Part shown: one piece after another, positions 6,016 through 40,461 of the stretch
Numbering within the stretch: position 1 is the stretch's first letter
Layout: the number at the start of each line of letters is the position of its first letter
NCBI GenBank assembly: GCA_035502185.1
Contig: DATJUT010000101.1
Coordinates: forward strand, 24,300 to 88,299
Source: Gemmatimonadales bacterium
GTDB lineage: Bacteria; Gemmatimonadota; Gemmatimonadetes; Gemmatimonadales; JACORV01
DNA: 64,000 nt
Direction: 5' to 3'
The notes under the pieces: model-generated
Databases searched by the model: none
What the model was told of the DNA's origin: nothing
The model's input: only the letters and a program-made list of their open reading frames with translations
Program-made: the position numbers and the translations under genes

Positions 6016-7232
6016 CACTTCTCACCGTCACCGATCACCACGTCCGCGAACTTCAGCTTGCCGTACTTGACCACGTACGACCCCGCCTCCAGCACCCGGT
6101 TCGCGTCCTCGACCTTCGCGCCGTCGAGCTGTACGCCGCCCTGGGCCGCCATCCGGCGGGCCTCGCCGAGGGAAGCCGCGAAGCCGATGTCCTTGAGCAC
6201 CTGGGCCAGCGATGCCGGACCGTGTGCGAAGTGCGGCCGCTCGGCCGGCGCCTGCTTGGCCTTGAACAGCCGGTCGAAGTGCGCCGCCGCCTGCACGGCC
6301 GCTGCGGCGCCGTGGAACTGCGTCACGACGTCGGCCGCGAGCCACCGCTTGGCGGCATACGGCTCCGCGCGGCAGCGCGCCAGCGCCGCGGCCAGATCGC
6401 CCGTCGAGCCCGCGGTGGAGACCAGGGTCGTCCACTCCTCGAGCAGCGTGTCCGGAATGGACATCGTCTTGCCGTACTGGCTCTCCGGCGGCTCGGTGAT
6501 GCCGACGTAGTTGTCGTACGACTGGGACATCTTCCGCTCGCCGTCGGTGCCGCGCAGCAGCGGCATCACCAGGCACACCTGCGGCTCCAGGCCCAGGCGC
6601 TCCATTAGCGTGCGGCCGACCAGCAGGTTGAACTTCTGGTCGGTGCCGCCGAGCTCGACGTCGGCCTTGAGGGCCACGGAGTCGTAGCCCTGCAGCAGCG
6701 GATAGAGGAACTCCGCGAGCGTGATCGGAGCCTCGGCCGCGTAGCGCTTGGCGAAGTCGTCGCGCTCGAGCAGCCGCGCGACGGTGTAGTGGCCGGCCAT
6801 CCGGGTCAGCGCGTCCCGGAGCGACATCGCGCCGTGCCATTCGCTGTTGCGACGCAGCGTCGTGCCGCGCGCATCGAGCATCTTGAGCGCCTGCTCGCGG
6901 TAGGTGGCGGCGTTCGCCTCGACCTCCGCCGCCGTGAGCGGCGGGCGGGTCTCGCTCCGACCGCTGGGGTCGCCGACCATCGCGGTGAAGTCACCCACCA
7001 GGAAGGTGACGCTGTGGCCGAGCTCCTGGAACGTGCGCAGCTTCCGGAGCGAGACCACGTAACCGAGATGCAGGTGGGGCCGGGTCGGGTCGAAGCCCTG
7101 CTTGACGTTCAGCGGGACGCCGGTCTTCGCGGAGCGCTCCAGCTTGCGCGCGAGGTCGTCCTCGGGGATGATCTCCACCGCGCCGCGGCGGATCGCGTCC
7201 ATCTGCTCGTTCACGGGCGGAAAGACGGGCAT
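6015..7232 (-). CDS. tyrS: Tyrosine--tRNA ligase
   Basis: HLGY (HIGH-type) and KMSQS (KMSKS) class I motifs, a C-terminal S4-like domain, 405 aa. Confidence 0.95.
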
Positions 7233-19806: not shown

Positions 19807-20631
19807 ATGACCGTGGAACGCCTGGCGTTCGCGCTGGCGCTGTGCGTTTCCGCCGGCGTGGGGGTGGGGTTCGCCCAGCAGCCGAGCGGTGCGGGCGGTC
19901 CCACCGATCGCCGTGCGGCGAATCAGTGCGTCGCGTGTCACGGCGGTCTGAGCGACGCCACGGGTGCCGGGCACGGGTTCGCGGCGTGGCGGCAGTCGCC
20001 GCACGCGGCGGCCGGGGTGGGATGCGAGGCGTGCCACGGTGGGGATCCGACGGCGCGCGACCGGCTGGCGGCGCACCGCGGGGTGGTCGTGTCCACCGAC
20101 CCGGAGAGTCGGCTGTACTTCGTGCGCGTCCCCGACACCTGCGGCCGCTGCCACGCCTCCGAGGTCGGCTACTTCCGCACCAGCCTCCACTACGCGCGGC
20201 TCCGTGCCGACGGGCGTGGCCCGAACTGCGTGACCTGCCACGGTGCCATGGCCACCTCGGTGCTCACGCCGGAGCGCCTGCTCGGGACCTGCTCGGCCTG
20301 CCACATGGCGGGCGGCCTGGCGCCGCCGGACAAGGCGCGGGAGGCGGCACAGGTGCTCGCCCTGGCGCGGGTCGAGAACGTCCTGTTCGACGTCGTGGCG
20401 GCGCAGGCGGCGGCGCAGCGCGCGGCGCGGGGGGCGAGCCGGGCGCGCATCATGCTCGATGAAGCGGAGCGCCATCTGACGGCGGCGGCTGAGATCTGGC
20501 ACAGCTTCCGGCTCGACTCGGCCTCGGCGCGGCTTGGCGACGCCCGCGAGAACCTGGTGGCGGCCTGGGTCGCTCTCGGCCACGCGGCACCGCTCGAGGC
20601 CCGGCAGGGCCGCGCCGGCGGCGAGCGGTGA
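19807..20631 (+). CDS. Pentahaem cytochrome c
   Basis: Signal peptide. CVACH, CEACH, CGRCH, CVTCH and CSACH. The C-terminal ~100 aa are haem-free and helical. Confidence 0.85.
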   Translation: MTVERLAFALALCVSAGVGVGFAQQPSGAGGPTDRRAANQCVACHGGLSDATGAGHGFAAWRQSPHAAAGVGCEACHGGDPTARDRLAAHRGVVVSTDPESRLYFVRVPDTCGRCHASEVGYFRTSLHYARLRADGRGPNCVTCHGAMATSVLTPERLLGTCSACHMAGGLAPPDKAREAAQVLALARVENVLFDVVAAQAAAQRAARGASRARIMLDEAERHLTAAAEIWHSFRLDSASARLGDARENLVAAWVALGHAAPLEARQGRAGGER

Positions 20632-21629
20632 AGGAGCCGGACCGGGTTCCCAGGCTGGCACTGGCCGGCGGTCTGACGCTGGCCGTGTTGCTGGCCTTCA
20701 CGCTGCACCTGCCGCAGCGGCTGCTGTCGGTCGCGGGGCGTGGCGCGGCGCACCGCCTCGACGGCCGGGCCGCCCCCGGGGAGTACCGATTCCGGTGGTC
20801 CGACGACGCCAGCAAGCTGGTCTTCCAGTGGAGCATCGTCGGCGACCGCCTGATCGGCGCGGTGACGTCCCCCGACACCGGCTGGGTGGCGGTCGGATTC
20901 GGGGGCGAAGGGCCGCTGATGTACGGCGCGGACATCGTGATCGGCTTCGTGGACGCGCACGGCGCGCACCTGGAGGATCACTTCGCGAACACGCCTACGA
21001 GCCACGTCGCGGACGTCACGCTGGGCGGTCGGGACGACATCCTGGGCGGCGCCGGTCTCAAGACCGCTTCGGGAACGACGATCGAGTTCGAGCGGCCGCT
21101 GGCGGCACGCGACAGCACCGACCGCCCGATCGTCGCGGGCCAGATGAAGGTCATCGTGGCCTCCTCCGAGTCGCCGGACCCGATGGCGTATCACGTCGAG
21201 GGCCACAAGGCGGTCGCGCTGCTCGACCTGTTCAACGGGCCGCCCGCGGTTGCGGGGGCCGGCGCGCCGCTGCCGGACCACCTCACCGACGTCCAGATCA
21301 CGCTCGCGGCGTGGATGGCGATCCTGCTCATCATCGGGCTGCACGGGGTGGCGTCGACGTATGCGGAGGGACGGGCCCATCCGTCCGGTGGCGGGGCGGA
21401 CGAGCGGACGGCGGTGGCGGTCACGCTGATGGTGGTGCTGTTGCTGGTGGAGCTGGCGGCCCTTGGGTCCTTCGCCGTGGGCGTCGTGGTGGCGTGGCCG
21501 GTGTGGTTCCTCGGCGCGTCACTGGCGGTCGGCATGCTCGCCCTGGCCGGGATCGTGGTGCTGTACAGCCGGGCGTTCGTGCACTGGGAGACGAGGCGCG
21601 CGGAGCGCGACGACGGGATCCCGTGGTGA
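20628..21629 (+). CDS. Membrane protein with DOMON-like domain and C-terminal TM helices
   Basis: GTG overlaps the upstream stop (GTGA). DOMON-like pattern FQWSI...GWVAVGFGG...GADIVIGFV...TIEFERPL. 3-4 hydrophobic helices at the C-terminus. Confidence 0.6.
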   Translation: MKEPDRVPRLALAGGLTLAVLLAFTLHLPQRLLSVAGRGAAHRLDGRAAPGEYRFRWSDDASKLVFQWSIVGDRLIGAVTSPDTGWVAVGFGGEGPLMYGADIVIGFVDAHGAHLEDHFANTPTSHVADVTLGGRDDILGGAGLKTASGTTIEFERPLAARDSTDRPIVAGQMKVIVASSESPDPMAYHVEGHKAVALLDLFNGPPAVAGAGAPLPDHLTDVQITLAAWMAILLIIGLHGVASTYAEGRAHPSGGGADERTAVAVTLMVVLLLVELAALGSFAVGVVVAWPVWFLGASLAVGMLALAGIVVLYSRAFVHWETRRAERDDGIPW

Positions 21630-21677
21630 GGGCGCGCCGGCGCGGGGCAGCGTCGCCGGGCGCGGAGGGGGAGGCGC

Positions 21678-22250
21678 GTGGATCGTAGGCGCTTTGCCGA
21701 GCGGTCGCTGGTGGCCGCCATCGTGGCGGCGGTCGCCTCGGTGATTCCGGGCGTCCTGACGCTGCGCGGGCGCTCGCACTCGGCGGCGACCAAGGGCATC
21801 GAGGCCGGGGACCGTCTGGTGTTCGCGCTCGGGCAGAACGCGGGCCAGGCCATCACGGACGGGAGCTTCAGCCAGAACGAGGCCGTGCTCGCGTACCCCG
21901 ACGGGAAGTCCGACAACCACGAGAATCTGGTGCTGGTGTGCAAGCTGGACCCCGCGGCGCTCAAGCCGCCGCTGGACCTCGCCGGCGCCGCGCACGGGGT
22001 CGTCGCGTACAGCGCGATCTGCACGCACCTCGGCTGCACGGTGCGGTTCTCCGAGGAACCGATGGACCAGGCGCCGTTCCCGCACATCCACTGCCCGTGC
22101 CACGGCGCGATGTTCGATCCGCAGCGCGGAGGCATCGTCCTCGGCGGGCCGCCGCCGCGCCCGCTGCCCCAGCTCCCGATCAGGCTGAACGACAAGGGCG
22201 AGGTGCTGGTGGCCGGTCCGTTCGTCGCGCCCGTCGGCGTGAAGGCCTAG
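21678..22250 (+). CDS. Rieske [2Fe-2S] subunit of a cytochrome bc-type complex
   Basis: Twin-arginine signal MDRRRF. Cluster boxes CTHLGCTV and CPCHGAMF. Confidence 0.9.
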   Translation: MDRRRFAERSLVAAIVAAVASVIPGVLTLRGRSHSAATKGIEAGDRLVFALGQNAGQAITDGSFSQNEAVLAYPDGKSDNHENLVLVCKLDPAALKPPLDLAGAAHGVVAYSAICTHLGCTVRFSEEPMDQAPFPHIHCPCHGAMFDPQRGGIVLGGPPPRPLPQLPIRLNDKGEVLVAGPFVAPVGVKA

Positions 22251-22265
22251 GGAGCGGCGCGCCCC

Positions 22266-23522
22266 GTGACCATCCCCCGCTGGTTCGAGGAGCGCCTCGC
22301 GCTCGAGCGGTTCAAGGCGAAGTACCTGGGCAAGCCGTTCCCGGTCCACTCCACCTTCTTCCTCGGCGAGATTGCGCTGTTCTGCTTCGTGGTGCTGGTC
22401 GGCACCGGCTTGTACCTGGCTCTGTTCTACGAGCCGTCGGCGGCGCTGGTGGCGGCCGACGGGGGCCGGCTCCCGGCCGCGTACGCGAGCACGCTGGCCA
22501 TCGACGCCCAGCCGTTCTCCGCCCTGATGCGGCGGATCCACCACTGGGCGGCGCACCTGATGATCGCCGCCATGCTGCTGCACCTCGTGCGCGTCTACTT
22601 CACCGCCGCGTACAAGCGGCCCCGCGAGGCGAACTGGGTGCTGGGGCTGGGGCTGCTCGGCATGACCGTCGCGGCGTCGTTCGCCGGCTACCTGCTGCCG
22701 TACGACCAGTTCTCGGTCACGGCGACGGCGATCGGATACGGCATTGCGCGGTCGGTGCCGTGGATCGGGCCGACGCTGGCCGACTACGTGTTCGCCGGCC
22801 GGTTCCCGTCGCCGGAGACGGTGCCGCGGTTCTTCGCCTACCATGTGGTGCTGGCGCCGCTCGCCCTGAGCGCGCTGGTGGGGCTGCACCTCCTCATCGT
22901 GCTGAAGCAGAAGCACACCGAGCTCGGCGCCGCCGGCCGCCCCGATCCCGTCGAGGGGAAGTGGATCCGGGGCATTCCGCTGTGGCCCGAGCAGACCGCG
23001 CTGATGGGCGTGCTGTTCCTCGTGATCGTCGCCGTCGCGGCGGCGCTGGCGGCGTTCCTGCCCGTGCACCCCTCCGCGTTCTTCGGGCCGCCGCAGCCGG
23101 CGACGCCCGACGTCAAGCCGGACTGGTACCTGCTGTGGATCTACGGTGCGCTGCGGCTGATCCCTGGCACGCTGAGCTTCCGCATCCTGGGGGCGACGAT
23201 CGGGCCGGAGGCGATCGGCGCCATGCTGGTGCCCGGGATCATCGGCCTGATCGTCGTCCTCGTGCCGTGGATCGACCGCACGCCGTCGTCGCTCTACTAC
23301 GCCGAGGCGCCGACGGCGGGCCCGCGCCGCCTCGCGCTGGGGCTGGCGGTGGTGGTGTTGTTGCTGGCGCTCTCGCTCGCCGGTTTCGGGACGGAGCTGG
23401 GCCTCGGGGTGCCGGTGCTGTGGGGCATCACCGTGGCGGCGCCCGTCGCGACGGCGGTCGGCGCGAGCGCCCTGGCGCGGCGGCGGGCGGAAAAGGCAAT
23501 GCAGGGAGCAGGGGTGCGGTAA
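22266..23522 (+). CDS. Cytochrome b (fused b6/subunit IV-length) of a bc-type complex
   Basis: 418 aa, multiple TM helices. Haem-ligand His pairs in HHWAAHLMIAAMLLH and the following helices. PEWY-region-like motif PDWYLLW. Confidence 0.9.
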   Translation: MTIPRWFEERLALERFKAKYLGKPFPVHSTFFLGEIALFCFVVLVGTGLYLALFYEPSAALVAADGGRLPAAYASTLAIDAQPFSALMRRIHHWAAHLMIAAMLLHLVRVYFTAAYKRPREANWVLGLGLLGMTVAASFAGYLLPYDQFSVTATAIGYGIARSVPWIGPTLADYVFAGRFPSPETVPRFFAYHVVLAPLALSALVGLHLLIVLKQKHTELGAAGRPDPVEGKWIRGIPLWPEQTALMGVLFLVIVAVAAALAAFLPVHPSAFFGPPQPATPDVKPDWYLLWIYGALRLIPGTLSFRILGATIGPEAIGAMLVPGIIGLIVVLVPWIDRTPSSLYYAEAPTAGPRRLALGLAVVVLLLALSLAGFGTELGLGVPVLWGITVAAPVATAVGASALARRRAEKAMQGAGVR

Positions 23523-23525
23523 GCA

Positions 23526-23669
23526 GGGCAGTTGCCAGACGGCAAGTTGCCAGTGGTTCCAAGCGGCAAGTCAGAAGGGGTCAGCCCAGATGCCAGTACT
23601 GACAACTGGGCTGGCCCCTCATGACTTGCGTCTGGCAACCACTGGCAACTTGCCGTCTGGCAACTGCCC
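23526..23669. repeat. Long nearly perfect hairpin element (copy 1) between convergent operons
   Basis: The 33-nt arm GGGCAGTTGCCAGACGGCAAGTTGCCAGTGGTT is perfectly complementary to 23637..23669. The inner 24-nt arms (23566..23589 and 23606..23629) have 21 Watson-Crick pairs plus 1 G-U. The loop is 16 nt. Confidence 0.85.
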
Positions 23670-23687
23670 CGCACCCTGCGCCTCCGT

Positions 23688-25130
23688 CTACTGGGCCGGT
23701 ATCCCGGTCGTATGGCAGATCAGGCACATCGCCCGGTTCTTGCTCGCGACCGACGGGTTGAAGCCGGCGCCGTGCGGGTCGATGTGCTGGCCGCTCGTGG
23801 CCGAGTGGCAGCGGAGGCAGAAGTCCTGCGCGTGGCAGCTGGCGCAGGTCTCGATCGCGCGGCGCGCGACGCCGCCGTGCCCGAACAGCCACCCCGGCTG
23901 CTTGTCGTGATAGCCCGCGCTGACGGGCGTGGTGGCGCTGGAGCGCCCGAGCGCCTGGTGGCAGTCGTGGCAGAACACCTGGGTCTGGTGGCAGGCCGCA
24001 CACTCGGCCTCCGCCGCATAGGCCTGGGTCGCGTGCCGCAGCACGAAGTTCGGGCCGTGGAACGCGGGCGCCTTCGCCGCGGCATGGCAGGTCGTGCAGT
24101 ACGACGGCCGGTGGCAGGTCGCGCAGCTGGCCGTTCCGCCCGCGGCCATCTCCCGGTGGTGCAGCAGCTGGTCGGGCAGGTGGTCGGCCGGCTTGAGACC
24201 GGCCAGGTTGACGCCGAAGGCGCCGCCCGCCGCGCGGCGGGGCAGGGCGGCGATCGCCGGCACGCGCTCCTGCACGCGGTGGCAGCCGATGCACGACTCC
24301 TGGGCGTGGCAGTTGGCGCATTCGACGACGCCGGCGCGCGCGACGACGCCGTGGCGTCGCGTCCAGTCGCTGGCTTCGTGCGACGGCGGCCGCGGGTAGG
24401 CGAACGTGAGCGTCCGCACCAGCTCGGCCTCCCGGTCGTCGGCCGGGAGGTCGCGGATCGCCTGCACCGCACGCGCATTGACGTGGCAGGCGGCGCAGAA
24501 CTGCTGCGCGTGGCACACCGCGCAGGTCGGGCCCGCCGCCGCGGTCTGGTGGTGCAGGATCCAGCTCGAGTCGTGCGACGGCGGCTTGGGAAAGGCGCGG
24601 ATCGTCTCGACGCTCAGCGCCGCGGCGTCGTGCAGCGTGGCGTGGCACGGCTGGCACGACTCCTGGGCGAGGTGGCTCGGCGCGCCCTGGCCGTGGCAGG
24701 AAACGCACCGCGCCGGGTTCGCGCGGCCGACCTCCATGTACGGCAGGGAGTCGGCGCTGGCGTGGCACTTCTGGCAGTTGGCGCCCCCGCTGTCCATCGC
24801 CTCGAACATCGCGACGTGGGGGACGTGGTCGAACGTCAGGTTGGTGGCCCGTCGCTGGGGCGGCGTCCAGCTCACCGGGCGTGCGAGGTCGCCGTTGTGG
24901 CAGCCGGCGCACAGCTGCGGCGACGGCCAGACGTCGGCGGTGTCGCCGGTCGCGATGCCCGCGTGGCACGCGGCGCAGGTGGTGAACAGCCGGGCGTGGC
25001 GGGCGTGCGGGAACGTGTCGGTGGCGAAGCGGGCGGCGGCCGCGGGCCGCGGCCGGACGCTGCGGGGAGCCCACGCGCCGGCCAGCAGCGCCGACAACGC
25101 GAGCAGGGCGGAGGCGGCGCGCGCGATCAC
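23688..25130 (-). CDS. Periplasmic multihaem cytochrome c (16 CXXCH)
   Basis: GTG 25130 (GTGA overlap with the upstream gene). Signal peptide ALLALSALLAGAWA. 16 CXXCH motifs by my count, many as doubled CXXCH-x3/4-CXXCH pairs. Confidence 0.9.
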   Translation of the reverse strand: MIARAASALLALSALLAGAWAPRSVRPRPAAAARFATDTFPHARHARLFTTCAACHAGIATGDTADVWPSPQLCAGCHNGDLARPVSWTPPQRRATNLTFDHVPHVAMFEAMDSGGANCQKCHASADSLPYMEVGRANPARCVSCHGQGAPSHLAQESCQPCHATLHDAAALSVETIRAFPKPPSHDSSWILHHQTAAAGPTCAVCHAQQFCAACHVNARAVQAIRDLPADDREAELVRTLTFAYPRPPSHEASDWTRRHGVVARAGVVECANCHAQESCIGCHRVQERVPAIAALPRRAAGGAFGVNLAGLKPADHLPDQLLHHREMAAGGTASCATCHRPSYCTTCHAAAKAPAFHGPNFVLRHATQAYAAEAECAACHQTQVFCHDCHQALGRSSATTPVSAGYHDKQPGWLFGHGGVARRAIETCASCHAQDFCLRCHSATSGQHIDPHGAGFNPSVASKNRAMCLICHTTGIPAQ

Positions 25131-26527
25131 TGGTAGCTCCCGACGCGATCGGCGTCGGCCCCGATGGTCCAGTCGAAGGTGACCGAGGCGCGGGTCTGGT
25201 TCCAGTCGAGCCCGGTTGAGCCCGTCTGACGCCGCTGGAAGTAGCGCATCAGGTCCACCTTGAGCCCGACGCGACGGTCCAGTGCCGTCCCGAAGTCCGC
25301 GCCGAGCCCGTAGACGGTGCCCCCGGCGACCCGGAACATGTCGGTCTGCTGGAACGCGGTGGTCTGGACGCCGGCGTGCCATCCGCCGCCGGGAGACCAG
25401 GCGGCCCGGAGGTCCCCTCCGCTCTGGTCGCCGCCGAAGCCCAGCTCGAGGTGGTAGTCCCCGTCGATCGTGTAGGCGCCCCGCCGCACGTGCACGCCGG
25501 CCGTGGCCTCCTTCTGGTCGTTGCCGACGTCCACCAGGAACGGCGAGCCGCTGCTCAGCGGCTGCCAGCGCCGGTAGGTGAAGGCGCCGGACAGCGACAC
25601 GTCGCGCGCGGCCGCCACGTTGACGGTCGCCGACACGCCGTAGTGCGACTCGGGCGAGAACACGCCCCAGATGGTCGAGAGATCCAGCGTCGGCCGGTAC
25701 TGGAACGCCTCGAGCTGGACCGAGTTGCCGTTCCCGAGCAGCACCGTCGCGCTGATGCGCGCCTTGCCCCATTGCTGCCGCGCCACGTCGGCGTCGGCCG
25801 ATCCCGCCAGCACCACCCGGGAGCCCACCCCCAGGCGGCCGTCGAACGCTGCGCGCTCGGACACCAGCCCGCTGCGGTCGGACAGCAGCTCGCGCTGGTA
25901 GATGGCCGAGAAGCTCGAGCGCGGCGAGGGCGCCGCCCACAGCGACGCACCGAGCAGGATGGTGCCGTGATCTTGCTGCAGCGGGTCGAGCGAGGTGATG
26001 GCCGAGCTGTTGGGCGCGTCGAGCGACGCGCGCGCCAGGCCGCGACCTCCGTAGCCCTCGATCCGCAGCGCCGCGAGGGGCCTCCAGCTGGCCGTCAGGC
26101 CGTCGAAGGCGTACCACCCGAGCCCGGACGCGCGCTGCTGCCGGCCGCCGCGCAACAGGTAGTGCGGCCGCTCCAGCTCGAGGTAGGCGTACATGGTCTG
26201 GAAGTGCTCGTCGGACTCGGGCCAGATCAGGCCGGAGCCGAGAGCGGCGCGGCCCCGCACGAGCGCGTACGCCCGCAGGCCCTCGATGCCCAGACCCCAC
26301 GCCGAGACCTCGAGGTCCTGGGTGAACGGCGCCGCGTAGGTGGCCGGCAGCGACACGAAGGCGCCCGTATCGTTGTTGGCCGCCGAATCGAACGCGATCG
26401 GCCGCAGTTGCACGTACTGGGTCGTGGTCGTGCCGTGTACGCGGATGTCCTGGCCGCGGAGCGCGGGGGCGCGGGCCGCGGCGAGCGCGAGCAGGACGGG
26501 GGCGATCCGTAGGAGCGGGTAGCGCAT
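25127..26527 (-). CDS. Outer-membrane beta-barrel protein (porin of a porin-cytochrome module)
   Basis: Signal peptide MRYPLLRIAPVLLALAAARAPALRGQ. No Cys. Alternating amphipathic segments rich in G/Y/W/R/D. Embedded between multihaem cytochrome genes. Confidence 0.7.
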   Translation of the reverse strand: MRYPLLRIAPVLLALAAARAPALRGQDIRVHGTTTTQYVQLRPIAFDSAANNDTGAFVSLPATYAAPFTQDLEVSAWGLGIEGLRAYALVRGRAALGSGLIWPESDEHFQTMYAYLELERPHYLLRGGRQQRASGLGWYAFDGLTASWRPLAALRIEGYGGRGLARASLDAPNSSAITSLDPLQQDHGTILLGASLWAAPSPRSSFSAIYQRELLSDRSGLVSERAAFDGRLGVGSRVVLAGSADADVARQQWGKARISATVLLGNGNSVQLEAFQYRPTLDLSTIWGVFSPESHYGVSATVNVAAARDVSLSGAFTYRRWQPLSSGSPFLVDVGNDQKEATAGVHVRRGAYTIDGDYHLELGFGGDQSGGDLRAAWSPGGGWHAGVQTTAFQQTDMFRVAGGTVYGLGADFGTALDRRVGLKVDLMRYFQRRQTGSTGLDWNQTRASVTFDWTIGADADRVGSYQ

Positions 26528-26529
26528 CG

Positions 26530-28188
26530 TCAGCTCCGGGCCGTGACCTTGTGGCATTGTTCGCACGCCTGTCCCGGGACGTGACGTGCCTGCGACGTGT
26601 GGCACGCCAGGCACATCTCGCGGGTGGCCGGCAGGTTGGCCGCACGGGCGCCGTGACAGGCGGCGCTCGCGCAGTTGGGGTGGTCGGCGGCCTTGTGGTC
26701 GGCGAGGGCGTTGGCGCCGGCGTGGCACGCCACGCAGTTCGCCGCGGGCCGGTGGTGGGCGACGTGGCACGACGCGCAATCGGCGCCATCCGGGGCGCGG
26801 GAGACCGGATCGGTATGACACTGCACGCAGGCGATGCCGCCGTGGCGCTGGTGCTCGAACGGCAGCCGCCGGGTCACCGTCCCGCGCTTGGCCGCGATCT
26901 CGAAGGTCCGCAGCGGCTGCAGCACCGCCCGGCCCAGCGCCGCCACGTCGTGGCACGTCGCGCACTGCACGCGCTCCGGGCCGCTGTGATGGCACCGCTG
27001 GCAGTCCGCGGCCGAGTGGACCAGCAGCTCCCCGTGGCGCACGCGGCTCGAATGACAGCTCGAACACGCCTGCCCGCGGTGGTCGCCGTGCGAAAAGCGC
27101 GGCACGGGGCCCGCACTCACCGCGGGTTGCTGCGCTCCCCGGAGCTGCGCCTCCGGCTCCCACACCGTCCCGGTCGAGGCGAAGTCCGCGACCGCGGTGG
27201 GCACGTCCAGCCTGCTGCGGGGCGCCCAGCTCACCCGTCGCCCGCGGGTCGGTGCCTCACGGGGGATGTTCGCGTGGCACCTCGTGCAGTTCTCTCCCTC
27301 CACCCGCCAGCTGTGCGGCTGATGGCAGGTCGTGCAGCGGTCGGGGTGCGGCACGCCCACGTGGAAGCTGACCCGCTGCCAGCCGGCATGGCAGCCGGCG
27401 CTGGTGCAGCTCACGTCCTGCGGCTTGGTCTGGGTGTGCGGGTTGTGGCAGTCGCCGCAGACGCCGTTGTGCGGGTCGCGCCCGACGTCCATCCGCTGCA
27501 ACCGCTGCTGCATCGCGTGGCACGACAGGCACTGGGCCGCCGCGGGCGTCAGCGGCTTGCCGAGCGAGTCCACCGCGAAGGTGCGCGCCTCCGCGAGGAA
27601 GTTGTGGCACGTGGTGCAGTGCAGCTCGCTCAGCTCCCCCATCTTCCCCAGGTGGATCGCGTTGTGGTCGTGGCAGCCCGACCGGCCGCAGGTCTGGTCC
27701 ACCGAGGCGAACTCGTGCAGGGAGACCCCGTGGCACTCCACGCATCGCATGCCCTTGAGCCTCGGGTCCTTCGACTCGAGGTGGATGCGGTGCCCGGCCG
27801 TGGCGGCGATGATCTTCCACTTGGTGGAGTCGCCGGTGACGTGGCACCTGGCGCAGACCTCGTTGGGCACGCGCGCGTGGCGGCCGATGCTGGTCGGGTT
27901 TGCGACGGCGGTCAGCCACAGCTGATGCAGCTGCTCCGGAATCCTGCCCTCGTGGCAATTGTGACACTCGAGCTTCGCATGAGCGCTCCGGCTGAAGCGC
28001 TGGAACGGATCGACCATCAGGTGGCACGACGTGCAGAACCGGTTGTCGTGCTGCATGTAGTGCCACTGGCGGTAGCCGGCAACCGACGTTCCGGCCACCA
28101 CCAGCGTGACGCCGGCCGCAAGACCGATCCGCCACGCCGGCGTCAGCCGCCGCCACGCCTTCAGGACCCACTCGTAGTATCGCGTCAT
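26530..28188 (-). CDS. Membrane-anchored NapC/NirT-type tetrahaem quinol dehydrogenase fused to a long multihaem extension
   Basis: One N-terminal TM helix, then CTSCH..CHNCH..CARCH..CVECH in the NapC/NirT pattern. A further 13 CXXCH and 3 CX4CH (CGRSGCH, CTSAGCH, CASAACH). Alternative start at 28221. Confidence 0.9.
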   Translation of the reverse strand: MTRYYEWVLKAWRRLTPAWRIGLAAGVTLVVAGTSVAGYRQWHYMQHDNRFCTSCHLMVDPFQRFSRSAHAKLECHNCHEGRIPEQLHQLWLTAVANPTSIGRHARVPNEVCARCHVTGDSTKWKIIAATAGHRIHLESKDPRLKGMRCVECHGVSLHEFASVDQTCGRSGCHDHNAIHLGKMGELSELHCTTCHNFLAEARTFAVDSLGKPLTPAAAQCLSCHAMQQRLQRMDVGRDPHNGVCGDCHNPHTQTKPQDVSCTSAGCHAGWQRVSFHVGVPHPDRCTTCHQPHSWRVEGENCTRCHANIPREAPTRGRRVSWAPRSRLDVPTAVADFASTGTVWEPEAQLRGAQQPAVSAGPVPRFSHGDHRGQACSSCHSSRVRHGELLVHSAADCQRCHHSGPERVQCATCHDVAALGRAVLQPLRTFEIAAKRGTVTRRLPFEHQRHGGIACVQCHTDPVSRAPDGADCASCHVAHHRPAANCVACHAGANALADHKAADHPNCASAACHGARAANLPATREMCLACHTSQARHVPGQACEQCHKVTARS

Positions 28189-35981: not shown

Positions 35982-37358
35982 TCAGGACGATGGCTCGATG
36001 CCGAGCCGCTTCATCCTTCTATAGAGGTTGGCCCGGTCGGTCGAGAGGGTGCGCGCGGCCTCGGCCACGCTGCCGCCCGCGGCCGAGAGCGCCCGCGTGA
36101 TGAGGACGCGCTCGAACCGGTCGAGCTCGTCGCTCAGGGGCAGCGTCATGGCGGCCGGATGCGGGAGCGGCTCCTCCCGGCCGTCGCCGGCGGGCAGCGC
36201 GGCTGCGACGTCGGCCTCGCCGATCGTGCTGCGCGAGGAGAGGATGATCAACCGCTCGACGATGTTGGCCAGCTCGCGCACGTTGCCCGGCCACGGATGC
36301 CGCACCAGCCGGTCCATCGCGTCGGCGGTCACGGTGACGGCGGGCCGGCCGATGCGCCGGGTCACCAGGCCGGCGAAGTGCGCCACCAGCTCGGGGATGT
36401 CGCCGGGCCGCTCGCGCAGCGGGGCGATGACGATCGGAAAGACGTTGAGCCGGTACAGCAGGTCCTCGCGGAAGGGGCCGTCCCGGGTGGCGCGCTCCAG
36501 GTCCTTGTTGGTGGCCGACACCACCCGCACGTCGACCGGGATCGGCCGGTCGCCGCCGACCCGCTCGACCTCTCCGCCCTCGAGCGCGCGGAGCAGCTTG
36601 GCCTGCGCCTCGGGCGAGAGGTCGCCCACCTCGTCGAGGAACAGGGTGCCGCCGTCCGCCTGCTCGAAGCGGCCGAGGCGCCGCTCGGTCGCCCCGGTGA
36701 ACGAGCCGCGCTCGTGGCCGAACATCTCCGATTCCACCAGCTCGCGCGGGATGGCGGCGCAGTTCACGCGGACGAACGGCGCGTCGGCGCGGGCGCTCGC
36801 CGCGTGGATGGCGCCGGCCACCAGCTCCTTGCCGGTGCCCGATTCGCCGGAGACCAGCACCCGGGCCTCGGTGGGGGCGACGCGGGCGATGAGCGAGCGG
36901 AGCTCGGTCATCTGCGGACTCGAGCCCACCAGCGTGGCCGTCGGGCCGAGGGCCTCGCGCAGCGCCATGGCTTCGGCGCGGGCGCGGGCCAGCTCGAGGG
37001 CCGAGTGGAGCGTCAGCAGCACCGCCTCGGGGGCGAGCGGCTTCTCCAGGAAGTGGTAGGCGCCGAGCTTGGTGGCGCGCACGGCGTCGGCGAGCCCCGC
37101 GCGTCCGCTCATCATGATCACGGGGACGCCCGGCACCTCGGCGCCGAGGCGCTCGAGCGTCTCCAGGCCGTCGGGGCCGCCGGGCATGGAAAGGTCGAGG
37201 AACACGGCGTCGGGGCGCCGGCGCTGCGCGGCGGCGACCGCATCCGTGCCCGAGGCGGCCTCGGCGGTGCGGTAGCCGTCCGAGGCGAGGACCGCGCACA
37301 GCATCCGCCGGAGGTTCGCCTCGTCGTCCACCACGAGCACCACGGGGTGCCGGGTCAC
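35982..37358 (-). CDS. Sigma-54-dependent response regulator (NtrC/NtrX-like)
   Basis: GTG 37358 (GTGA overlap with the kinase stop). Receiver VLVVDDE...DLSMPG. AAA+ domain with GESGTGKE, ESEMFGH and GSFTGA. C-terminal HTH. Confidence 0.92.
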   Translation of the reverse strand: MTRHPVVLVVDDEANLRRMLCAVLASDGYRTAEAASGTDAVAAAQRRRPDAVFLDLSMPGGPDGLETLERLGAEVPGVPVIMMSGRAGLADAVRATKLGAYHFLEKPLAPEAVLLTLHSALELARARAEAMALREALGPTATLVGSSPQMTELRSLIARVAPTEARVLVSGESGTGKELVAGAIHAASARADAPFVRVNCAAIPRELVESEMFGHERGSFTGATERRLGRFEQADGGTLFLDEVGDLSPEAQAKLLRALEGGEVERVGGDRPIPVDVRVVSATNKDLERATRDGPFREDLLYRLNVFPIVIAPLRERPGDIPELVAHFAGLVTRRIGRPAVTVTADAMDRLVRHPWPGNVRELANIVERLIILSSRSTIGEADVAAALPAGDGREEPLPHPAAMTLPLSDELDRFERVLITRALSAAGGSVAEAARTLSTDRANLYRRMKRLGIEPSS

Positions 37359-38590
37359 GCGCGCGCCACCGGCAGCGTGACGGTGAACGTGGTGCCGCGG
37401 CCGGGCTCGCTCGTGACGCCGATCGAGCCGCCGTGATCGTGGATCGTCTGCCGCACCAGCGCGAGCCCCAGGCCGGTGCCCTTCGCCTTGGTGGTGAAGT
37501 AGGGCTCGAAGATCCGTTCCAGCCGCTCCGCGGGGATCCCGACGCCGTTGTCGCGCACGGCGATCTCGACGGCCGGGGCCGCACCGTTGGGCGCCGCGCG
37601 CAGCGCGACCGTGATCTCGCCGCCTCGCGGCGGCGCCTTCCCGGGCCCGGCGGGCGCGGCATCGCGGCAGGCGTCGCAGGCGTTGAGGACGAGGTTGTGC
37701 AGCGCGCGGCGCAGCGGCTCGTAGTGGGCGCTCACCAGTGGCAGGTCCGGCGCGCTCTCCACCCGGACGGCGATCTCGGGGGGCACGGTCCCCTTCACCA
37801 GGGTCTCCACCAGCTCGACGAGGTCCACGGGCGCCGGCGGGCCCTCCGGGAGCCGGCCCAGCGTGGCGAAGTCGCGCGCCATCTGCTCGATGCGCTCGCT
37901 CTCGCCCTCCACGATCTCGAGCAGCTCCCGCTGGTCCGGTCGCGCGTCCTGGGCGAGGCGCGAGGTGGCGAAGCGGAGCGGCGTCAGCGGGTTCTTCAGC
38001 TCGTGGGCCACCTGGCGCGCCAGGTCGCGGAAGGCCCGGAGCTGGGCCGCCTCCACCTCGCGCGCCCGGGCGGCGGCGAGGTCCGTCGCCATCGCGCGGA
38101 AGGCATTGCGCAGCACGTCGAATTCGGGAGCGCCCTTGGCCGGGGGGGCGACCGGGAGCGGCTCGCCGCGCGTCAGGCGTCCCGTCCAGGCGATCAGCTC
38201 GTCGATGGGGCGGGACAGCTGCCGCGACAGGTGGCCGGCGAGACGGACGGTGCCGAGCGCCACCAGGGCGGCGAGGGCGGCGGCGAAGCCGGCGAGCGCG
38301 CGCGCGAACGTGTCCCGAACGGTCTGGCTCCGCCGCGCGAGGGTCAGCGAGTTGCTCAGGTCGTCGGCATGGTGGCGCAGAGCGGCGCGGGCGGCAGGCG
38401 TGAGCGGCTGGCGGGCCAGCGCGCGCTGGGCCTCGAGCCAGGTGCTCGCGGCGCGGTCCCAGGCGGCGACGCCGCCGACCGGCGCCGCGATCCGCGGCGC
38501 CAGCAGCGAGACGGCCACGCCGACCCCGGCGGGGATCGCCGCGACCGCGACGAGCCACGCGAAGAGGCTGCGACGGAAGGCGAGGGCCAC
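37355..38590 (-). CDS. Membrane sensor histidine kinase with HAMP domain (NtrY-like)
   Basis: Two TM segments and a HAMP-like linker. H-box AHELKNPLTPL. N/G boxes NLVLNA, DNGVGI, GTGLGL. Confidence 0.88.
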   Translation of the reverse strand: MALAFRRSLFAWLVAVAAIPAGVGVAVSLLAPRIAAPVGGVAAWDRAASTWLEAQRALARQPLTPAARAALRHHADDLSNSLTLARRSQTVRDTFARALAGFAAALAALVALGTVRLAGHLSRQLSRPIDELIAWTGRLTRGEPLPVAPPAKGAPEFDVLRNAFRAMATDLAAARAREVEAAQLRAFRDLARQVAHELKNPLTPLRFATSRLAQDARPDQRELLEIVEGESERIEQMARDFATLGRLPEGPPAPVDLVELVETLVKGTVPPEIAVRVESAPDLPLVSAHYEPLRRALHNLVLNACDACRDAAPAGPGKAPPRGGEITVALRAAPNGAAPAVEIAVRDNGVGIPAERLERIFEPYFTTKAKGTGLGLALVRQTIHDHGGSIGVTSEPGRGTTFTVTLPVARA

Positions 38591-38650
38591 GCGCCAAAGG
38601 TGGGGCTGCGCACCGTCAGTCTCAAGAGTGGAGTAAATGACGGTGGGCAG

Positions 38651-38791
38651 AACAGTTGCGAGACGCCGAGTTGCGAGTGGTCGTGAGTGGGCAGCTGGGA
38701 GGGGCGAGACCAGTTGTCAGGTACTGCCCACTGGCCTGCAGTCCGTTCACTCAGGACTCGTAACCACCCGCAACCCGGCGTCTCGCAACTG
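38651..38791. repeat. Hairpin element (copy 2), diverged and inverted relative to 23526..23669
   Basis: The arm ACAGTTGCGAGACGCCGAGTTGCGAGTGGT pairs with 38762..38791 at 28 of 30 positions. The core matches copy 1 in reverse complement (CAGTAC(C)TGACAACTGG.CT.GCCCCTC). Confidence 0.8.
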
Positions 38792-38868
38792 TACTCGCTC
38801 TCACCACTTACGTCTCTCTCCGGGAACAGAAACTGGCCCGCGCGTCGTGGCATGGGTATCATTGAAAG

Positions 38869-40461
38869 TTGGGCTTGATTGGGGGCACGCTTCTGGGTTC
38901 GGCACATCTCGCGGACGTATTCGATGCCGCCGCGGCGCGCGCTCCCGAGCGGCTGCTGGCGGTAGCCGGGGAGCGGCGCTACAGCTACGCGCAGCTCGGC
39001 CGGGAGGCGGAATCCCTCGCCGCGGCGTTGGCGGACCTCGGCATCGAGGCCGGTGACACCATCGCGGTCTGCCTGCCCAACCGGCCGGAGTGGCTGGCGA
39101 CGGCGGTGGCCGCAGCACGGCTGGGCGCCGTCCTGGTTCCCGTCAATCCCGGCCTCGGACACCACGAGCTCACCTACCAGCTGCGCCATGCCGAGGCGTC
39201 GGTGGTGGTGACCGCCGAGAGCTACGGCGACCGGGACTTCGTCGAGCTGTTCGACGAGCTGGTCGGCGACCTCCCCGACGTGCAGTACCTCGTGGCCGTC
39301 GGCAGCGGCGACTACTGGTACGACGACCGGGTGTTCCCCTATCGGGACCTCGTGTCGAGGGGCGGGCGGCTCGCCGCGCCGTCGGGGGCGCGGGACGCGG
39401 ACGGGCTGTTCGCCATCCTCTACACGTCGGGCACCATGGGGAAGCCCAAGGGGGTACGCCTGACGCACCGGAACGTGGTCGGCACGGCGGCCGCGGTGAA
39501 CGAGGTGCTCGCACTCACGGGCGAGGACGTGGTGCTGGCGGCGGTGCCGTTCTTCACGATCTTCGGCACCAGCGTCGCCGCCGGGGCCGTCGCGGCGGGT
39601 GCGGGCCTGGTGCTCGACGAGCGGTTCGACCCGGCCGCGGCGGTCGCGCTGATGGCGCGGGAGCGGGTGACTGTGTGTCACGGCGTGCCCACGATGTTCC
39701 ACCTCCTGGTGCGGGAGCGCGGCTTCGCGCGCTCCGCCCTGCCGCTGCTGAGGACCGGCATCGTGGCGGGGAGCCCGGTGCCTCCCGACCTGCTGGCGGC
39801 GGTCCGGCGCACCTGCGACGTGGAGGTCGCTTACGGCCTGACCGAGACCGGGCCGACGGTGACGATCACGCGGCCGGGCGATGCCCCGGTGCATCGGGCC
39901 GAGACTGTGGGGCGGGCGCTGCCCGGGGTCGAGCTCAAGATCGTGGACGTGGGCACCGGGGAGCTGCACGGCGAGGAGGCGGTGGGAGAGCTCGCCGTGC
40001 GGGGCCCGAACGTGATGACGGGCTACCACCGGATGCCGGGCGAGACGCGACGGTCGTTCACGCCGGAGGGGTTCTTCCTCACCGGCGACCTGGCGATGCT
40101 GGAAGCGGACGGGTACGTGCGGATCGTCGGCCGCCGCAAGGAGATGATCATCCGCGGTGGCTACAACATCTACCCGCGCGAAGTGGAAGACGTGTTGCGG
40201 GCGCATCCGGGCGTCGCGGAGGTCTGCGTGGTGGGCATTCCCCACGAGGTCCTCGGCGAGGCGGTGTGCGCCTGTGTCGTACCGACCGAGGGCGCCATCC
40301 TGCGGGGCGAGGACATCACCGAGTTCGCCCGGCGGCAGATGGCCGACTACAAGGTGCCCGACCTGGTGCGGTTCTTCGACGTGCTCCCGCTGACGGCGAG
40401 CGGGAAGGTGAAGCGTCGGGAGCTGGCCCAGGTGGTGGCACTCGAACACACAGCCTCCTGA
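38869..40461 (+). CDS. AMP-dependent acyl-CoA synthetase/ligase
   Basis: AMP-binding signature [20 protein letters not shown], and the C-terminal lysine region [11 protein letters not shown] start. Confidence 0.9.

What the first reader, a model, noticed from the sequence alone, without database searches (positions are those of the whole stretch)
23505..23680. Very long, nearly perfect hairpin between the two convergent cytochrome operons
A 33-nt arm (23526..23558) is perfectly complementary to 23637..23669. After a short internal loop, 24-nt inner arms pair at 21 Watson-Crick positions plus one T-G position. That position is a G-U wobble only in a plus-strand RNA. The loop is 16 nt and contains AGTACT. 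Each arm carries the internal direct repeat GTTGCCAG twice. Partial complementarity extends into both flanking stop-codon regions. This is far larger than an ordinary intrinsic terminator. It could act as a bidirectional terminator, an RNA stability or processing element, a MITE-like insertion, or a protein-binding cruciform.
Basis: seen in the sequence. Interest (0 to 1): 0.6.

Follow-up and report, generated by a model that had tools for sequence, protein, structure and literature searches.

The report
Dispersed heptad-repeat palindrome, IVS-like element

Summary
The 33-nt outer arms are perfectly complementary and the whole stem folds at -149.5 kcal/mol (z = -14).

It is not a locus-specific terminator. 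It is one copy of a dispersed family with at least 134 distinct loci in Gemmatimonadales MAGs and metagenomes, about 26-31 copies per Mb. A second, diverged copy lies in this window at 38625-38819.

Each arm is an array of ~7-nt units ending in CAG around a conserved 29-mer, AGTTGCCAGACGGCAAGTTGCCAGTGGTT. The heptads continue outside the arms into the stop-codon regions. Copies sit mostly just after stop codons.

Every 511-534-nt member encloses a PF05635 (23S-rRNA-IVS / Avd-like) gene between the same arms, and that gene is under purifying selection. All nine distant PF05635 loci examined are likewise flanked by lineage-specific 7-8-nt repeat arrays. These include a true 23S IVS and Xanthomonas XCC0516, which carries the known GGGAATC heptamer.

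The arms do not covary, so each arm's sequence is conserved rather than the pairing. I found no target-site duplication, no transposase, no U-tract and no Rfam family. The copy here is ancestral to several lineages and was lost once.

Function is inferred only: a transcript barrier or RNase III substrate, and possibly a protein-binding array.

The parts
23502..23693 (.). Full extent of the predicted hairpin: heptad-repeat palindrome including the outer degenerate heptads and both flanking stop codons
   Evidence: RNAfold pairs 23502..23693, -149.5 kcal/mol, z = -14.2. The same holds on the minus strand and as DNA.
23500..23529 (+). Outer left heptads (..GCAG GGAGCAG GGGTGCGG TAAGCAG GGC). They overlap the last codons and the TAA stop (23520-23522) of cytochrome b.
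   Evidence: The family-wide 7-nt CAG periodicity lies outside the conserved arm: distance 7 seen 63 times against 1.6 expected; distances 14 and 21 are also enriched.
23526..23558 (+). Left perfect 33-nt arm. It contains the family's conserved 29-mer AGTTGCCAGACGGCAAGTTGCCAGTGGTT (23530-23558).
23559..23597 (+). Left inner arm: heptads CCAAG CGGCAAG TCAGAAG GGGTCAG CCCAG ATGCCAG, up to the centre
23595..23600 (.). Centre of symmetry AGTACT, within the conserved apical block CCAGNTGYCAGTACTGACAACTGG
23598..23636 (-). Right inner arm. Read on the minus strand it is the same heptad array.
23637..23669 (-). Right perfect 33-nt arm (29-mer at 23637-23665 on the minus strand)
23666..23695 (-). Outer right heptads (CTG-periodic on the plus strand). 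They overlap the stop codon (23688-23690) and last codons of the 16-haem cytochrome gene on the minus strand.
38625..38819 (.). Second, diverged copy of the same family in the window. It is the 'GAG-type': every CAG is replaced by GAG. Arms lie at 38654-38682 and 38762-38790. It sits between divergently oriented genes.
   Evidence: nhmmer E = 2e-38; fold -106.8 kcal/mol

Best explanation
SHOWN.
- The hairpin is an ORF-less copy, in the 136-nt size class measured anchor to anchor, of a dispersed palindromic repeat family of Gemmatimonadales.
- Each arm is an array of roughly 7-nt units ending in CAG, built around a conserved 29-mer.
- The two arms are inverted copies of that array, and this is why the element folds.
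- Longer members (511-534 nt) have the same arms and carry one intact, purifying-selected gene for a PF05635 protein. This is the '23S rRNA intervening-sequence protein', a four-helix-bundle homologue of the Avd protein of diversity-generating retroelements.
- The family therefore has the design of a 23S rRNA intervening sequence (terminal inverted repeats, heptamer repeats, optional S23p ORF) but lives between protein-coding genes, mostly just after stop codons.
- The copy at this locus predates the split of lineages whose cytochrome b differs by about 10-13% in amino acids. One lineage has lost it.

INFERRED.
- When either convergent cytochrome operon is transcribed into the element, the RNA folds into a stem about 70 bp long with a 33-bp perfect base.
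- The most likely molecular consequences are a block to read-through and to 3' exonucleases, and/or cleavage by RNase III, as happens at the terminal stems of rRNA intervening sequences. Either would insulate the two operons from each other.
- What is conserved is each arm's sequence, not the pairing. The arms are therefore probably arrays of binding sites for a sequence-specific factor. The PF05635 protein is the obvious but untested candidate.
- How copies spread is unknown.
For: Family and copy number
- An exact 21-of-23 arm pattern gave 25 loci in GTDB species genomes. Nearly all are Gemmatimonadales MAGs, with up to five loci per MAG. It gave 113 metagenome loci.
- After dereplication there are 134 distinct loci: 52 short hairpins, 4 IVP-bearing elements and 78 single arms.
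- Copies that were not selected by the search pattern occur at 26 per Mb. The window itself has 2 in 64 kb.
- Arm-to-arm lengths fall in discrete classes: 89, 103-105, 111-114, 120, 135-138, 143-153 and 511-534 nt.

IVP link
- All six 511-534-nt pairs, representing 4 distinct loci, enclose a PF05635 gene (E = 1.1e-25).
- PF05635 genes found through the protein alone also carry the arms (L150, L168, L176; L147 on one side only).
- For these genes pN/pS is 0.08-0.34 while pS is 0.54-0.80.

Heptads
- CAG spacing of 7, 14 and 21 nt is enriched outside the conserved arm.
- A subfamily replaces every CAG with GAG in concert.

Generality
- All 9 independent distant PF05635 loci examined have 7-8-nt tandem arrays on both sides, mostly inverted. 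They are Gemmatirosa, Azospirillum (inside a 23S rRNA gene), five cyanobacterial plasmids, Riemerella, and Xanthomonas XCC0516 between accB and accC.
- The Xanthomonas unit is the genome-wide GGGAATC heptamer of PMC4692102.
- The Coxiella IVS has GACAGAT heptamers and a 28-bp stem cut by RNase III (PMC4990558).

Position
- Gene 3' ends face hairpins 47 times against 24 for 5' ends, at a median of about 22 nt.
- Only 1 divergent context was seen, against 12 convergent and 13 tandem.

Orthology
- The element is present in the window, L031 and L032 and absent in L028, which is sister to L031.
- Orthologous 29-mers match at 56/58 and 50/58 positions. Whole-element identity is 0.80-0.88, against 0.67-0.71 at fourfold sites of cytochrome b.

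No structural selection
- 80.4% of cells are paired, against 81.1 +/- 0.7 in shuffles.
- Arm similarity within a copy equals that between copies.
Against: - No mobility mechanism is shown. I found no target-site duplication and no transposase.
- Each PF05635 variant occupies one genomic context in all samples, and copies within a genome are old and diverged. There is therefore no sign of recent transposition.
- The one presence/absence case is best read as a loss.
- All functional statements (barrier, RNase III, protein binding) are by analogy. There are no expression data.
- Most loci were found with an exact arm pattern, so 29-mer conservation across copies is partly by construction. The unbiased support is limited to orthologous copies, second arms, protein-anchored loci and the flanks.
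- Gene context in the census rests on a crude GC3-based ORF caller.
- The distant PF05635 sample is small (9 loci) and comes mostly from plasmids.
Confidence: 0.7

Rival explanations
1. A locus-specific bidirectional intrinsic terminator that evolved in place to stop the two convergent cytochrome operons.
For: It lies exactly between two convergent stop codons. A more distant orthologous locus (L033) has a conventional GC hairpin followed by a T-run at the same place. The stem is very stable on both strands.
Against: The same sequence occurs at more than 130 unrelated loci, including tandem and one divergent context. There is no U-tract on either side. The stem is several times longer than terminator stems. 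There are no compensatory changes. A close relative manages with a 33-nt spacer.
Confidence: 0.08
2. A REPIN, that is a REP doublet mobilised in trans by a RAYT (IS200/IS605-like tyrosine transposase).
For: It is an inverted doublet of a conserved unit forming a long hairpin. It is extragenic, there are many single 'decayed' units, and there is no target-site duplication. This description fits REPINs as given in PMC3116915.
Against: The unit is not a short GC-rich palindrome with a terminal GTAG/CGTC tag. It is a roughly 60-100-nt array of direct heptads. The only gene found between arms is PF05635, in 4 of 4 distinct long elements. No Y1 transposase was seen in about 0.9 Mb of flanking DNA, but that DNA was not searched systematically for one.
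Confidence: 0.07
3. A classical MITE: a deletion derivative of a transposase-encoding insertion sequence with the same terminal inverted repeats.
For: It has terminal inverted repeats, small discrete size classes, is dispersed and non-coding, and shows presence/absence at an orthologous site.
Against: There is no target-site duplication at any offset. No long element with a transposase lies between facing arms; the one wide arm pair, 4349 nt apart in L075, is more likely two unrelated solo arms and was not examined further. The long form carries PF05635 instead. Copies are old, and orthologous copies are more conserved than synonymous sites, which is unexpected for dead MITE copies.
Confidence: 0.1
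4. A structured non-coding RNA (sRNA or 3'-UTR stability element) whose fold is the selected feature.
For: Very low folding energy. Placement at 3' ends of genes.
Against: No covariation. Pairing within a copy is no better than between arms of different copies. Single arms are the commonest form. There is no Rfam family; only sub-threshold miRNA-hairpin matches appear.
Confidence: 0.05

Closest known systems
23S rRNA intervening sequences carrying an S23p / PF05635 ORF (Coxiella burnetii, Leptospira; PMC4990558)
   Same: Terminal inverted repeats form a long stem. There are short heptamer repeats next to the stem (GACAGAT in Coxiella; GACAGAG/GACGGAG in the Azospirillum IVS seen). A PF05635 gene may sit in the loop, and ORF-less and ORF-bearing forms both exist. 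The origin is regarded as selfish or unknown.
   Different: This element is not in an rRNA gene. It is present at about 26-31 copies per Mb between protein-coding genes. Its arms are longer and have a 29-mer core. RNase III excision is shown for IVSs but is only inferred here. The PF05635 genes here are under purifying selection, whereas the Coxiella ORF is decaying.
Intergenic heptameric tandem repeats: GGGAATC in Xanthomonas and GGGGAYT in Nostoc (PMC4692102); cyanobacterial STRR heptanucleotides (recalled from memory: Mazel et al. 1990)
   Same: The unit is 7 nt. The repeats are intergenic and close behind the upstream ORF (a mean of 28 nt in Xanthomonas, about 22 nt here). They frequently occur as convergent inverted pairs. 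Their position is conserved between related species. No function is known.
   Different: The units here are degenerate (N4-CAG) and surround a conserved non-repetitive 29-mer and a conserved apex. They are not G-quadruplex-type. The link to a PF05635 gene is not noted in PMC4692102; I found it for XCC0516.
REPINs / REP-BIME elements (PMC3116915)
   Same: They are extragenic inverted doublets that form hairpins. Singlets are common, there is no target-site duplication, and there are hundreds of copies.
   Different: The unit architecture differs and there is no GTAG/CGTC-tagged short palindrome. No RAYT was found. A different associated gene (PF05635) is present.
MITEs such as Correia or ERIC elements (from general knowledge)
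   Same: They are 100-150-nt palindromic dispersed repeats that are co-transcribed with neighbouring genes. Correia elements are RNase III substrates.
   Different: No target-site duplication and no transposase partner were found. The arms are built of heptads.

Membership tests
MITE | Terminal inverted repeats, small size, no coding capacity, many dispersed copies | tested here: met
   29-33-nt conserved inverted termini. Sizes of 89-153 nt. 134 distinct loci.
MITE | Target-site duplication flanking each copy | tested here: not met
   Direct repeats of 3-6 nt at any fixed offset from -8 to +32 are no more frequent than in re-paired controls, across 55 copies.
MITE | Autonomous partner with the same termini encoding a transposase | tested here: not met
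   All 4 distinct long elements (511-534 nt) encode only PF05635. Whole genomes could not be scanned.
REP / REPIN | The unit is a 20-40-nt GC-rich imperfect palindrome with a terminal GTAG or CGTC tag | tested here: not met
   The arm is a direct heptad array. Its only internal palindrome is TTGCC-AGAC-GGCAA, 5 bp, with the CGTC complement in the loop.
REP / REPIN | Associated RAYT gene flanked by the repeats | not tested
The loci held (about 0.9 Mb) were not searched for Y1 transposases.
23S rRNA intervening sequence | Inserted in helix 25 or 45 of a 23S rRNA gene | tested here: not met
   The element lies between a cytochrome b gene and a multihaem cytochrome gene. None of 6 universal rRNA motifs occurs in any fetched locus.
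23S rRNA intervening sequence | Terminal inverted repeats forming a long stem, optionally enclosing a PF05635 ORF | tested here: met
   Stem shown. PF05635 in long-form relatives with the same arms shown. This particular copy has no ORF.
23S rRNA intervening sequence | Excision from the transcript by RNase III | not testable with these tools
   No transcript data. The 33-bp perfect duplex exceeds the roughly 20 bp that RNase III needs (general knowledge).
Intergenic heptameric tandem repeats (Xanthomonas/Nostoc type) | Head-to-tail 7-nt units | tested here: met
   CAG-to-CAG distances of 7, 14 and 21 nt occur 63, 37 and 23 times, against 1.6, 1.2 and 0.9 expected, in flanks outside the conserved arm. 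The units are degenerate (N4CAG).
Intergenic heptameric tandem repeats (Xanthomonas/Nostoc type) | Intergenic, close behind the upstream ORF, often as convergent inverted pairs | tested here: met
   47 gene 3' ends at a median of about 22 nt. 56 of 134 loci are inverted pairs.
Intrinsic (Rho-independent) terminator | Short GC-rich stem-loop followed by a U-tract | tested here: not met
   No terminator-like site in 23300-23900 on either strand. The flanks are GCCCCGCACCC and GCCCTGCTTACC.

The most novel reading that the evidence does not exclude
PF05635 proteins (S23p / 'four helix bundle protein', homologues of the Avd protein of diversity-generating retroelements) are the trans-acting partners of lineage-specific 7-8-nt repeat arrays. 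Under this reading, four things are one superfamily of palindromic heptad-repeat elements: 23S rRNA intervening sequences, the Xanthomonas GGGAATC arrays, the cyanobacterial heptanucleotide arrays, and this Gemmatimonadales family. Each lineage's protein would recognise, maintain or spread its own repeat. The ORF-less hairpins, such as the one in this window, would be the non-autonomous majority.
Probability: 0.3. Interest if true: 0.8.

Novelty: new variant of a known kind. Interest (0 to 1): 0.6.

Why it matters
Three puzzles have stood for decades:
- what 23S rRNA intervening sequences are and where they come from;
- what their conserved four-helix-bundle protein does;
- why heptameric tandem repeats accumulate behind genes in Xanthomonas and cyanobacteria.

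This locus connects them. In Gemmatimonadales one repeat family exists in both ORF-less and PF05635-bearing forms with the same arms. In every other lineage I sampled, the PF05635 gene is bracketed by that lineage's own 7-8-nt repeat.

If the link holds, it gives a concrete testable hypothesis: protein-repeat recognition, with RNase III processing of the stems. Culturable systems are available to test it in, namely Xanthomonas XCC0516 (PDB 2GSC), Nostoc and Gemmatirosa.

There is also a practical point for annotation. These elements overlap stop codons, break assemblies, and sit inside operons such as accB-accC, cas10-cmr3 and cas6-cas4.

Tried and rejected
- **Rfam.** No family reached its gathering threshold in the whole window. 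With permissive thresholds only sub-threshold animal miRNA-precursor models matched, which merely reflects a long hairpin.
- **Viral origin.** The arm pattern is absent from IMG/VR contigs.
- **Target-site duplications.** None found.
- **Structural selection.** No covariation.
- **Sigma-70 promoter and intrinsic terminator scans.** Nothing at the element and nothing above chance across 20 kb.
- **Inspection by eye against consensus sequences recalled from memory.**
  - Sigma-54 promoter: the GG-N10-GC spacing does not fit.
  - ECF promoter: GGAAC...CGTC has a 14-nt spacer, which is too short.
  - Integron attC: no GTTRRRY / RYYYAAC core.
  - Xer/dif sites: the half-sites here are direct, not inverted.
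  - Neisseria DNA-uptake sequence: it shares GCCGTCTG, which I judge a coincidence given the IVP link and the low copy density.
- **rRNA context.** No copy lies in an rRNA gene.
- **Recent mobility.** Three PF05635 variants that occur on many contigs (P0193, P0150, P0215) each occupy a single gene context. No evidence of recent transposition was obtained.
- **Half copies as hidden hairpins.** Sequence downstream of solo arms shows no CTG periodicity and no long fold in general. A few are followed by other heptad arrays.
- **Literature.** Searches found no paper linking PF05635 genes with heptad arrays outside rRNA, and none describing palindromic repeats in Gemmatimonadota. The library searched is open-access only.
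Full report
**1. The observation.**
The sequence at 23505-23680 is as described.
- Positions 23526-23558 are the exact reverse complement of 23637-23669, 33 nt.
- The next 24 nt on each side give 21 Watson-Crick pairs, one T-G pair and two mismatches.
- AGTACT lies at the centre (23595-23600), and GTTGCCAG occurs twice in each arm.
- The repeat finder reports 75-nt arms that are 87% complementary with no spacer.
- As RNA the plus strand folds at -149.5 kcal/mol (z = -14.2) and the minus strand at -148.0 (z = -13.5). As DNA it folds at -85.4 (z = -13.1). No shuffle folded as well.
- Predicted pairing runs from about 23502 to 23693. It therefore includes the TAA stop of the cytochrome b gene (23520-22) and the stop (23688-90) of a minus-strand gene for a 480-aa protein with 16 CXXCH motifs.
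- G+C drops to 0.60-0.62 in the element, against 0.72-0.80 around it.

**2. It is a repeat family, not a one-off.**
No further exact copy of the arm exists in the window. However, the only other long inverted repeat in the 64 kb, at 38625-38819, turned out to be a diverged member.
- An exact search for GTTGCCAGNNGGCAAGTTGCCAG found 25 loci in one-genome-per-species bacterial and archaeal genomes. Nearly all are Gemmatimonadales MAGs, with up to five loci per MAG.
- The same search found 113 metagenome loci and none in viral contigs.
- The window's own contig is from a soil-type ENA metagenome, and its cytochrome b is annotated as Gemmatimonadales.
- After profile searches and dereplication there are 134 distinct loci: 52 short hairpins, 4 long elements and 78 single arms.
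- Elements that did not contain the search pattern occur at 26 per Mb in the fetched DNA. The window has 2 in 64 kb. This suggests on the order of a hundred copies per genome, by extrapolation.
- Outer arm-to-arm lengths fall into discrete classes. The 136-nt class, to which this copy belongs, is the commonest.

**3. Anatomy.**
- The arm consensus is ..CAG-nnn-AGTTGCCAG ACGGCAAG TTGCCAG TGGTTACCAG ACGCAAG TGGCCAG GGGCCAG ACCAG, followed by a conserved apex CCAGTTGTCAGTACTGACAACTGG.
- The arm is thus a run of 7-8-nt units ending in CAG or AAG.
- The periodicity continues outside the conserved 29-mer for at least four units on both sides. In the 45 nt outside the arms, CAG-to-CAG distances of 7, 14 and 21 nt occur 63, 37 and 23 times, against about 1-2 expected. 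CTG shows nothing on that strand.
- These outer heptads overlap the last codons and stop codons of the neighbouring genes, here and elsewhere.
- A subfamily, which includes the window's second copy, has GAG in place of CAG in every unit.
- Some single arms are followed by other homogeneous heptad arrays: CCCTAAC x4 in L007/L114 and CTCACTC-type in L095.

**4. Where copies sit.**
This part uses a crude GC3-based gene caller.
- Gene 3' ends face the hairpins 47 times, at a median of about 22 nt from the 29-mer. Gene 5' ends face them 24 times, from farther away.
- Where both sides could be assigned, 12 contexts are convergent (including all 4 long elements), 13 are tandem and 1 is divergent.
- Stop-codon distances cluster with a 7-nt rhythm.
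- No target-site duplication of 3-6 nt exists at any fixed offset.

**5. The long form carries a 23S-rRNA-IVS protein gene.**
- In L020 two arms face each other 511 nt apart, each just after the stop codon of a convergent gene. They enclose a 118-aa ORF that matches PF05635 (23S_rRNA_IVP) at E = 1.1e-25.
- Every arm pair of 511-534 nt (L020 = L105, L056 = L102, L141, L059) encloses such a gene. The proteins are 72-88% identical to one another.
- Starting from the protein instead, close homologues are numerous. Those fetched also carry the arms on both sides (L150, L168, L176) or on one side (L147). They lie in at least four gene contexts, for example Metallophos/deoxyhypusine synthase and PdxA/HisG.
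- These genes are under purifying selection: pN/pS is 0.08-0.34 while pS is 0.54-0.80.
- Each variant was seen in only one context, so I have no evidence of recent movement.

**6. Orthologous loci.**
- Cytochrome b homologues gave the same operon pair in other metagenomes.
- The element is present in L031 (identical to L017) and in L032.
- It is absent from L028-L030, where a 33-nt spacer still shows CAG heptads on the left and CTG on the right.
- L033 has a conventional GC hairpin followed by a T-run in its place.
- L028 is the closest relative of L031: cytochrome b is 93% identical, against 87-90% for other pairs. The simplest history is that the element was ancestral and was deleted once.
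- Orthologous copies are 0.80-0.88 identical overall, and 56/58 and 50/58 in the 29-mers. Fourfold-degenerate sites of cytochrome b are 0.67-0.71 identical.
- The copy is therefore old and is either constrained or homogenised.
- This comparison does not depend on the search pattern. The conservation of the 29-mer across pattern-selected loci is partly by construction.

**7. Pairing is not what is conserved.**
- In 13 distinct 136-nt copies, a fully symmetric structure of 66 pairs has 80.4% of cells paired, against 81.1 +/- 0.7 after shuffling partners among sequences. 430 of 500 shuffles were at least as high, and no excess of double changes was seen.
- The left arm of a copy is no more similar to its own right arm than to right arms of other copies. 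For the inner part the values are 0.66 against 0.67, and for the 29-mer 0.90 against 0.91.
- The hairpin is therefore a by-product of two arms that each keep the same sequence.
- The window's copy is simply better preserved than average.
- In two PF05635-bearing elements (L168, L176) both arms share the same departure from the consensus. This is a hint of concerted arms there, but the sample is only two.

**8. Beyond Gemmatimonadales.**
A tblastn search with the PF05635 protein against plasmids found distant homologues at 30-36% identity. Together with Xanthomonas XCC0516, reached through PDB 2GSC, I examined nine independent loci. All have 7-8-nt tandem arrays close on both sides, mostly in inverted orientation:

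| Organism | Upstream / downstream unit | Context |
|---|---|---|
| Gemmatirosa | GAGGGCAG / CTCCTGCC | plasmid |
| Azospirillum | GAGGACG-GACAGAG / GTCTTCT | inside a 23S rRNA gene |
| Calothrix | TTAGCTG / AGCTAAA | plasmid |
| Pseudanabaena | (AAAAGCT)15 / (AAAAGCC)14 | between cas6 and cas4 |
| Riemerella | GGTTTAA / TAAACCT | plasmid |
| Picosynechococcus | AGGAGATA / ATCTCCTA | between cas10 and cmr3 |
| Nostoc punctiforme | TCAGGAG / CTGACTC | plasmid |
| Leptolyngbya | GAGATAGG / TCTCCGCC | plasmid |
| Xanthomonas citri and campestris | GGGAATC GGGAGTG GAGAATG GGGAATC / CCCACTC CCCATTC TCGACTC CCTATTC | between accB and accC |

- In the four AT-richer loci that have 8-16 kb of context, such arrays are otherwise rare or absent.
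- The Xanthomonas unit is the GGGAATC heptamer that Rehm et al. found at about 186 mostly intergenic sites. Those sites include 70 convergent inverted pairs, lie on average 28 nt behind the upstream ORF, are conserved in position, and have no known function. PF05635 is not mentioned in that paper (PMC4692102).
- The Coxiella 23S IVS has an S23p ORF, a 28-bp terminal stem cut by RNase III, and GACAGAT heptamers (PMC4990558).
- PF05635 is homologous to the Avd protein of diversity-generating retroelements (PMC10053308).

**9. Interpretation.**
Shown:
- the hairpin is an ORF-less member of a palindromic heptad-repeat family;
- long-form relatives carry a PF05635 gene;
- this design matches rRNA intervening sequences, but the element is located between protein genes.

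Inferred:
- In transcripts of either operon, the 33-bp perfect duplex plus the imperfect inner stem would hinder read-through and 3' exonucleases, and would be a good RNase III substrate.
- Sequence-level conservation of each arm, and the concerted CAG-to-GAG switch, suggest an array of binding sites for a sequence-specific factor. PF05635 is the obvious candidate.
- The way copies arise is unknown.
- There is no canonical terminator signature here and no known RNA family.

**10. Novelty.**
Long palindromic intergenic repeats, rRNA IVSs and heptamer arrays are each known. I found no description of this Gemmatimonadales family, or of the PF05635-heptad association outside rRNA, in the searchable open-access literature. 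Subscription-only papers may hold one. I rate it a new variant of a known kind. The specific locus is ordinary in effect. The family-level link is the interesting part.

Noticed in passing
window 38625-38819: A second family member of the 'GAG-type' (AGTTGCGAGACGCCGAGTTGCGAGTGGT...). It fills most of a 278-nt spacer between divergently oriented genes (37355-38590 on the minus strand, 38869-40461 on the plus strand). This is the only divergent context in the census, so both promoters must lie in or around the element.
   Followed up: partly
window 23688-26789 (minus strand): The 1033-aa mechanical ORF is two genes according to the gene calls on the source contig: 480 aa plus about 466 aa, overlapping by 4 nt. 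All 16 CXXCH motifs are in the 480-aa product. The upstream product has no Pfam hit.
   Followed up: partly
window 19807-23522: The plus-strand operon reads cytochrome c, pentahaem cytochrome, DOMON-domain protein, Rieske protein, cytochrome b. This is an unusual bc-type complex with DOMON and multihaem partners, facing a cluster of 16-, 17- and 8-haem cytochromes on the other strand.
   Followed up: no
L007 (about 6540-6600) / L114; L095: Solo arms are followed by homogeneous heptad arrays of other sequence: CCCTAAC x4 (telomere-like GGGTTAG on the other strand) and CTCACTC-type x7. This suggests that heptad arrays can expand or be replaced locally.
   Followed up: no
L159 7986-8342; L157 1201-1560; L164/L165 701-1081: PF05635 genes with their repeat arrays are wedged inside operons: between cas10 and cmr3 (Picosynechococcus), between cas6 and cas4 (Pseudanabaena), and between accB and accC (Xanthomonas). 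This may explain the reported statistical association of '23S rRNA IVP' with CRISPR loci (PMC10910872).
   Followed up: partly
L147-L149 (start of loci): Contigs from many samples end about 180-220 nt upstream of the PF05635 gene, where the 5' arm should be. The repeat seems to break short-read assemblies, so copy numbers in MAGs are probably underestimates.
   Followed up: no
L168 1302-1352 and 1379-1441: A GAG-type solo arm lies directly upstream of the CAG-type arm of a PF05635-bearing element. The two subfamilies are side by side in one spacer.
   Followed up: no
L018 / L129 about 1030-1390; L005 7641-7870: Elements lie next to or between tRNA genes, so placement is not restricted to the 3' ends of protein genes.
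   Followed up: no
L160 3444-3470 and 3586-3618: On the Nostoc punctiforme plasmid an ORF-less inverted pair of a different heptamer (GCAATTC / AATTGCG) lies 4.4 kb from the PF05635 gene.
   Followed up: no
L150 (GCA_035505445.1, labelled Opitutaceae): A PF05635 element with Gemmatimonadales-type arms and gene neighbourhood sits in a MAG labelled Verrucomicrobiota. This is either mis-binning or transfer between phyla.
   Followed up: no
window 23650-23659 and the arm consensus: The arm contains GCCGTCTG, the first 8 bases of the Neisseria DNA-uptake sequence GCCGTCTGAA (recalled from memory). That sequence also occurs as inverted pairs behind genes. I judge this a coincidence.
   Followed up: partly
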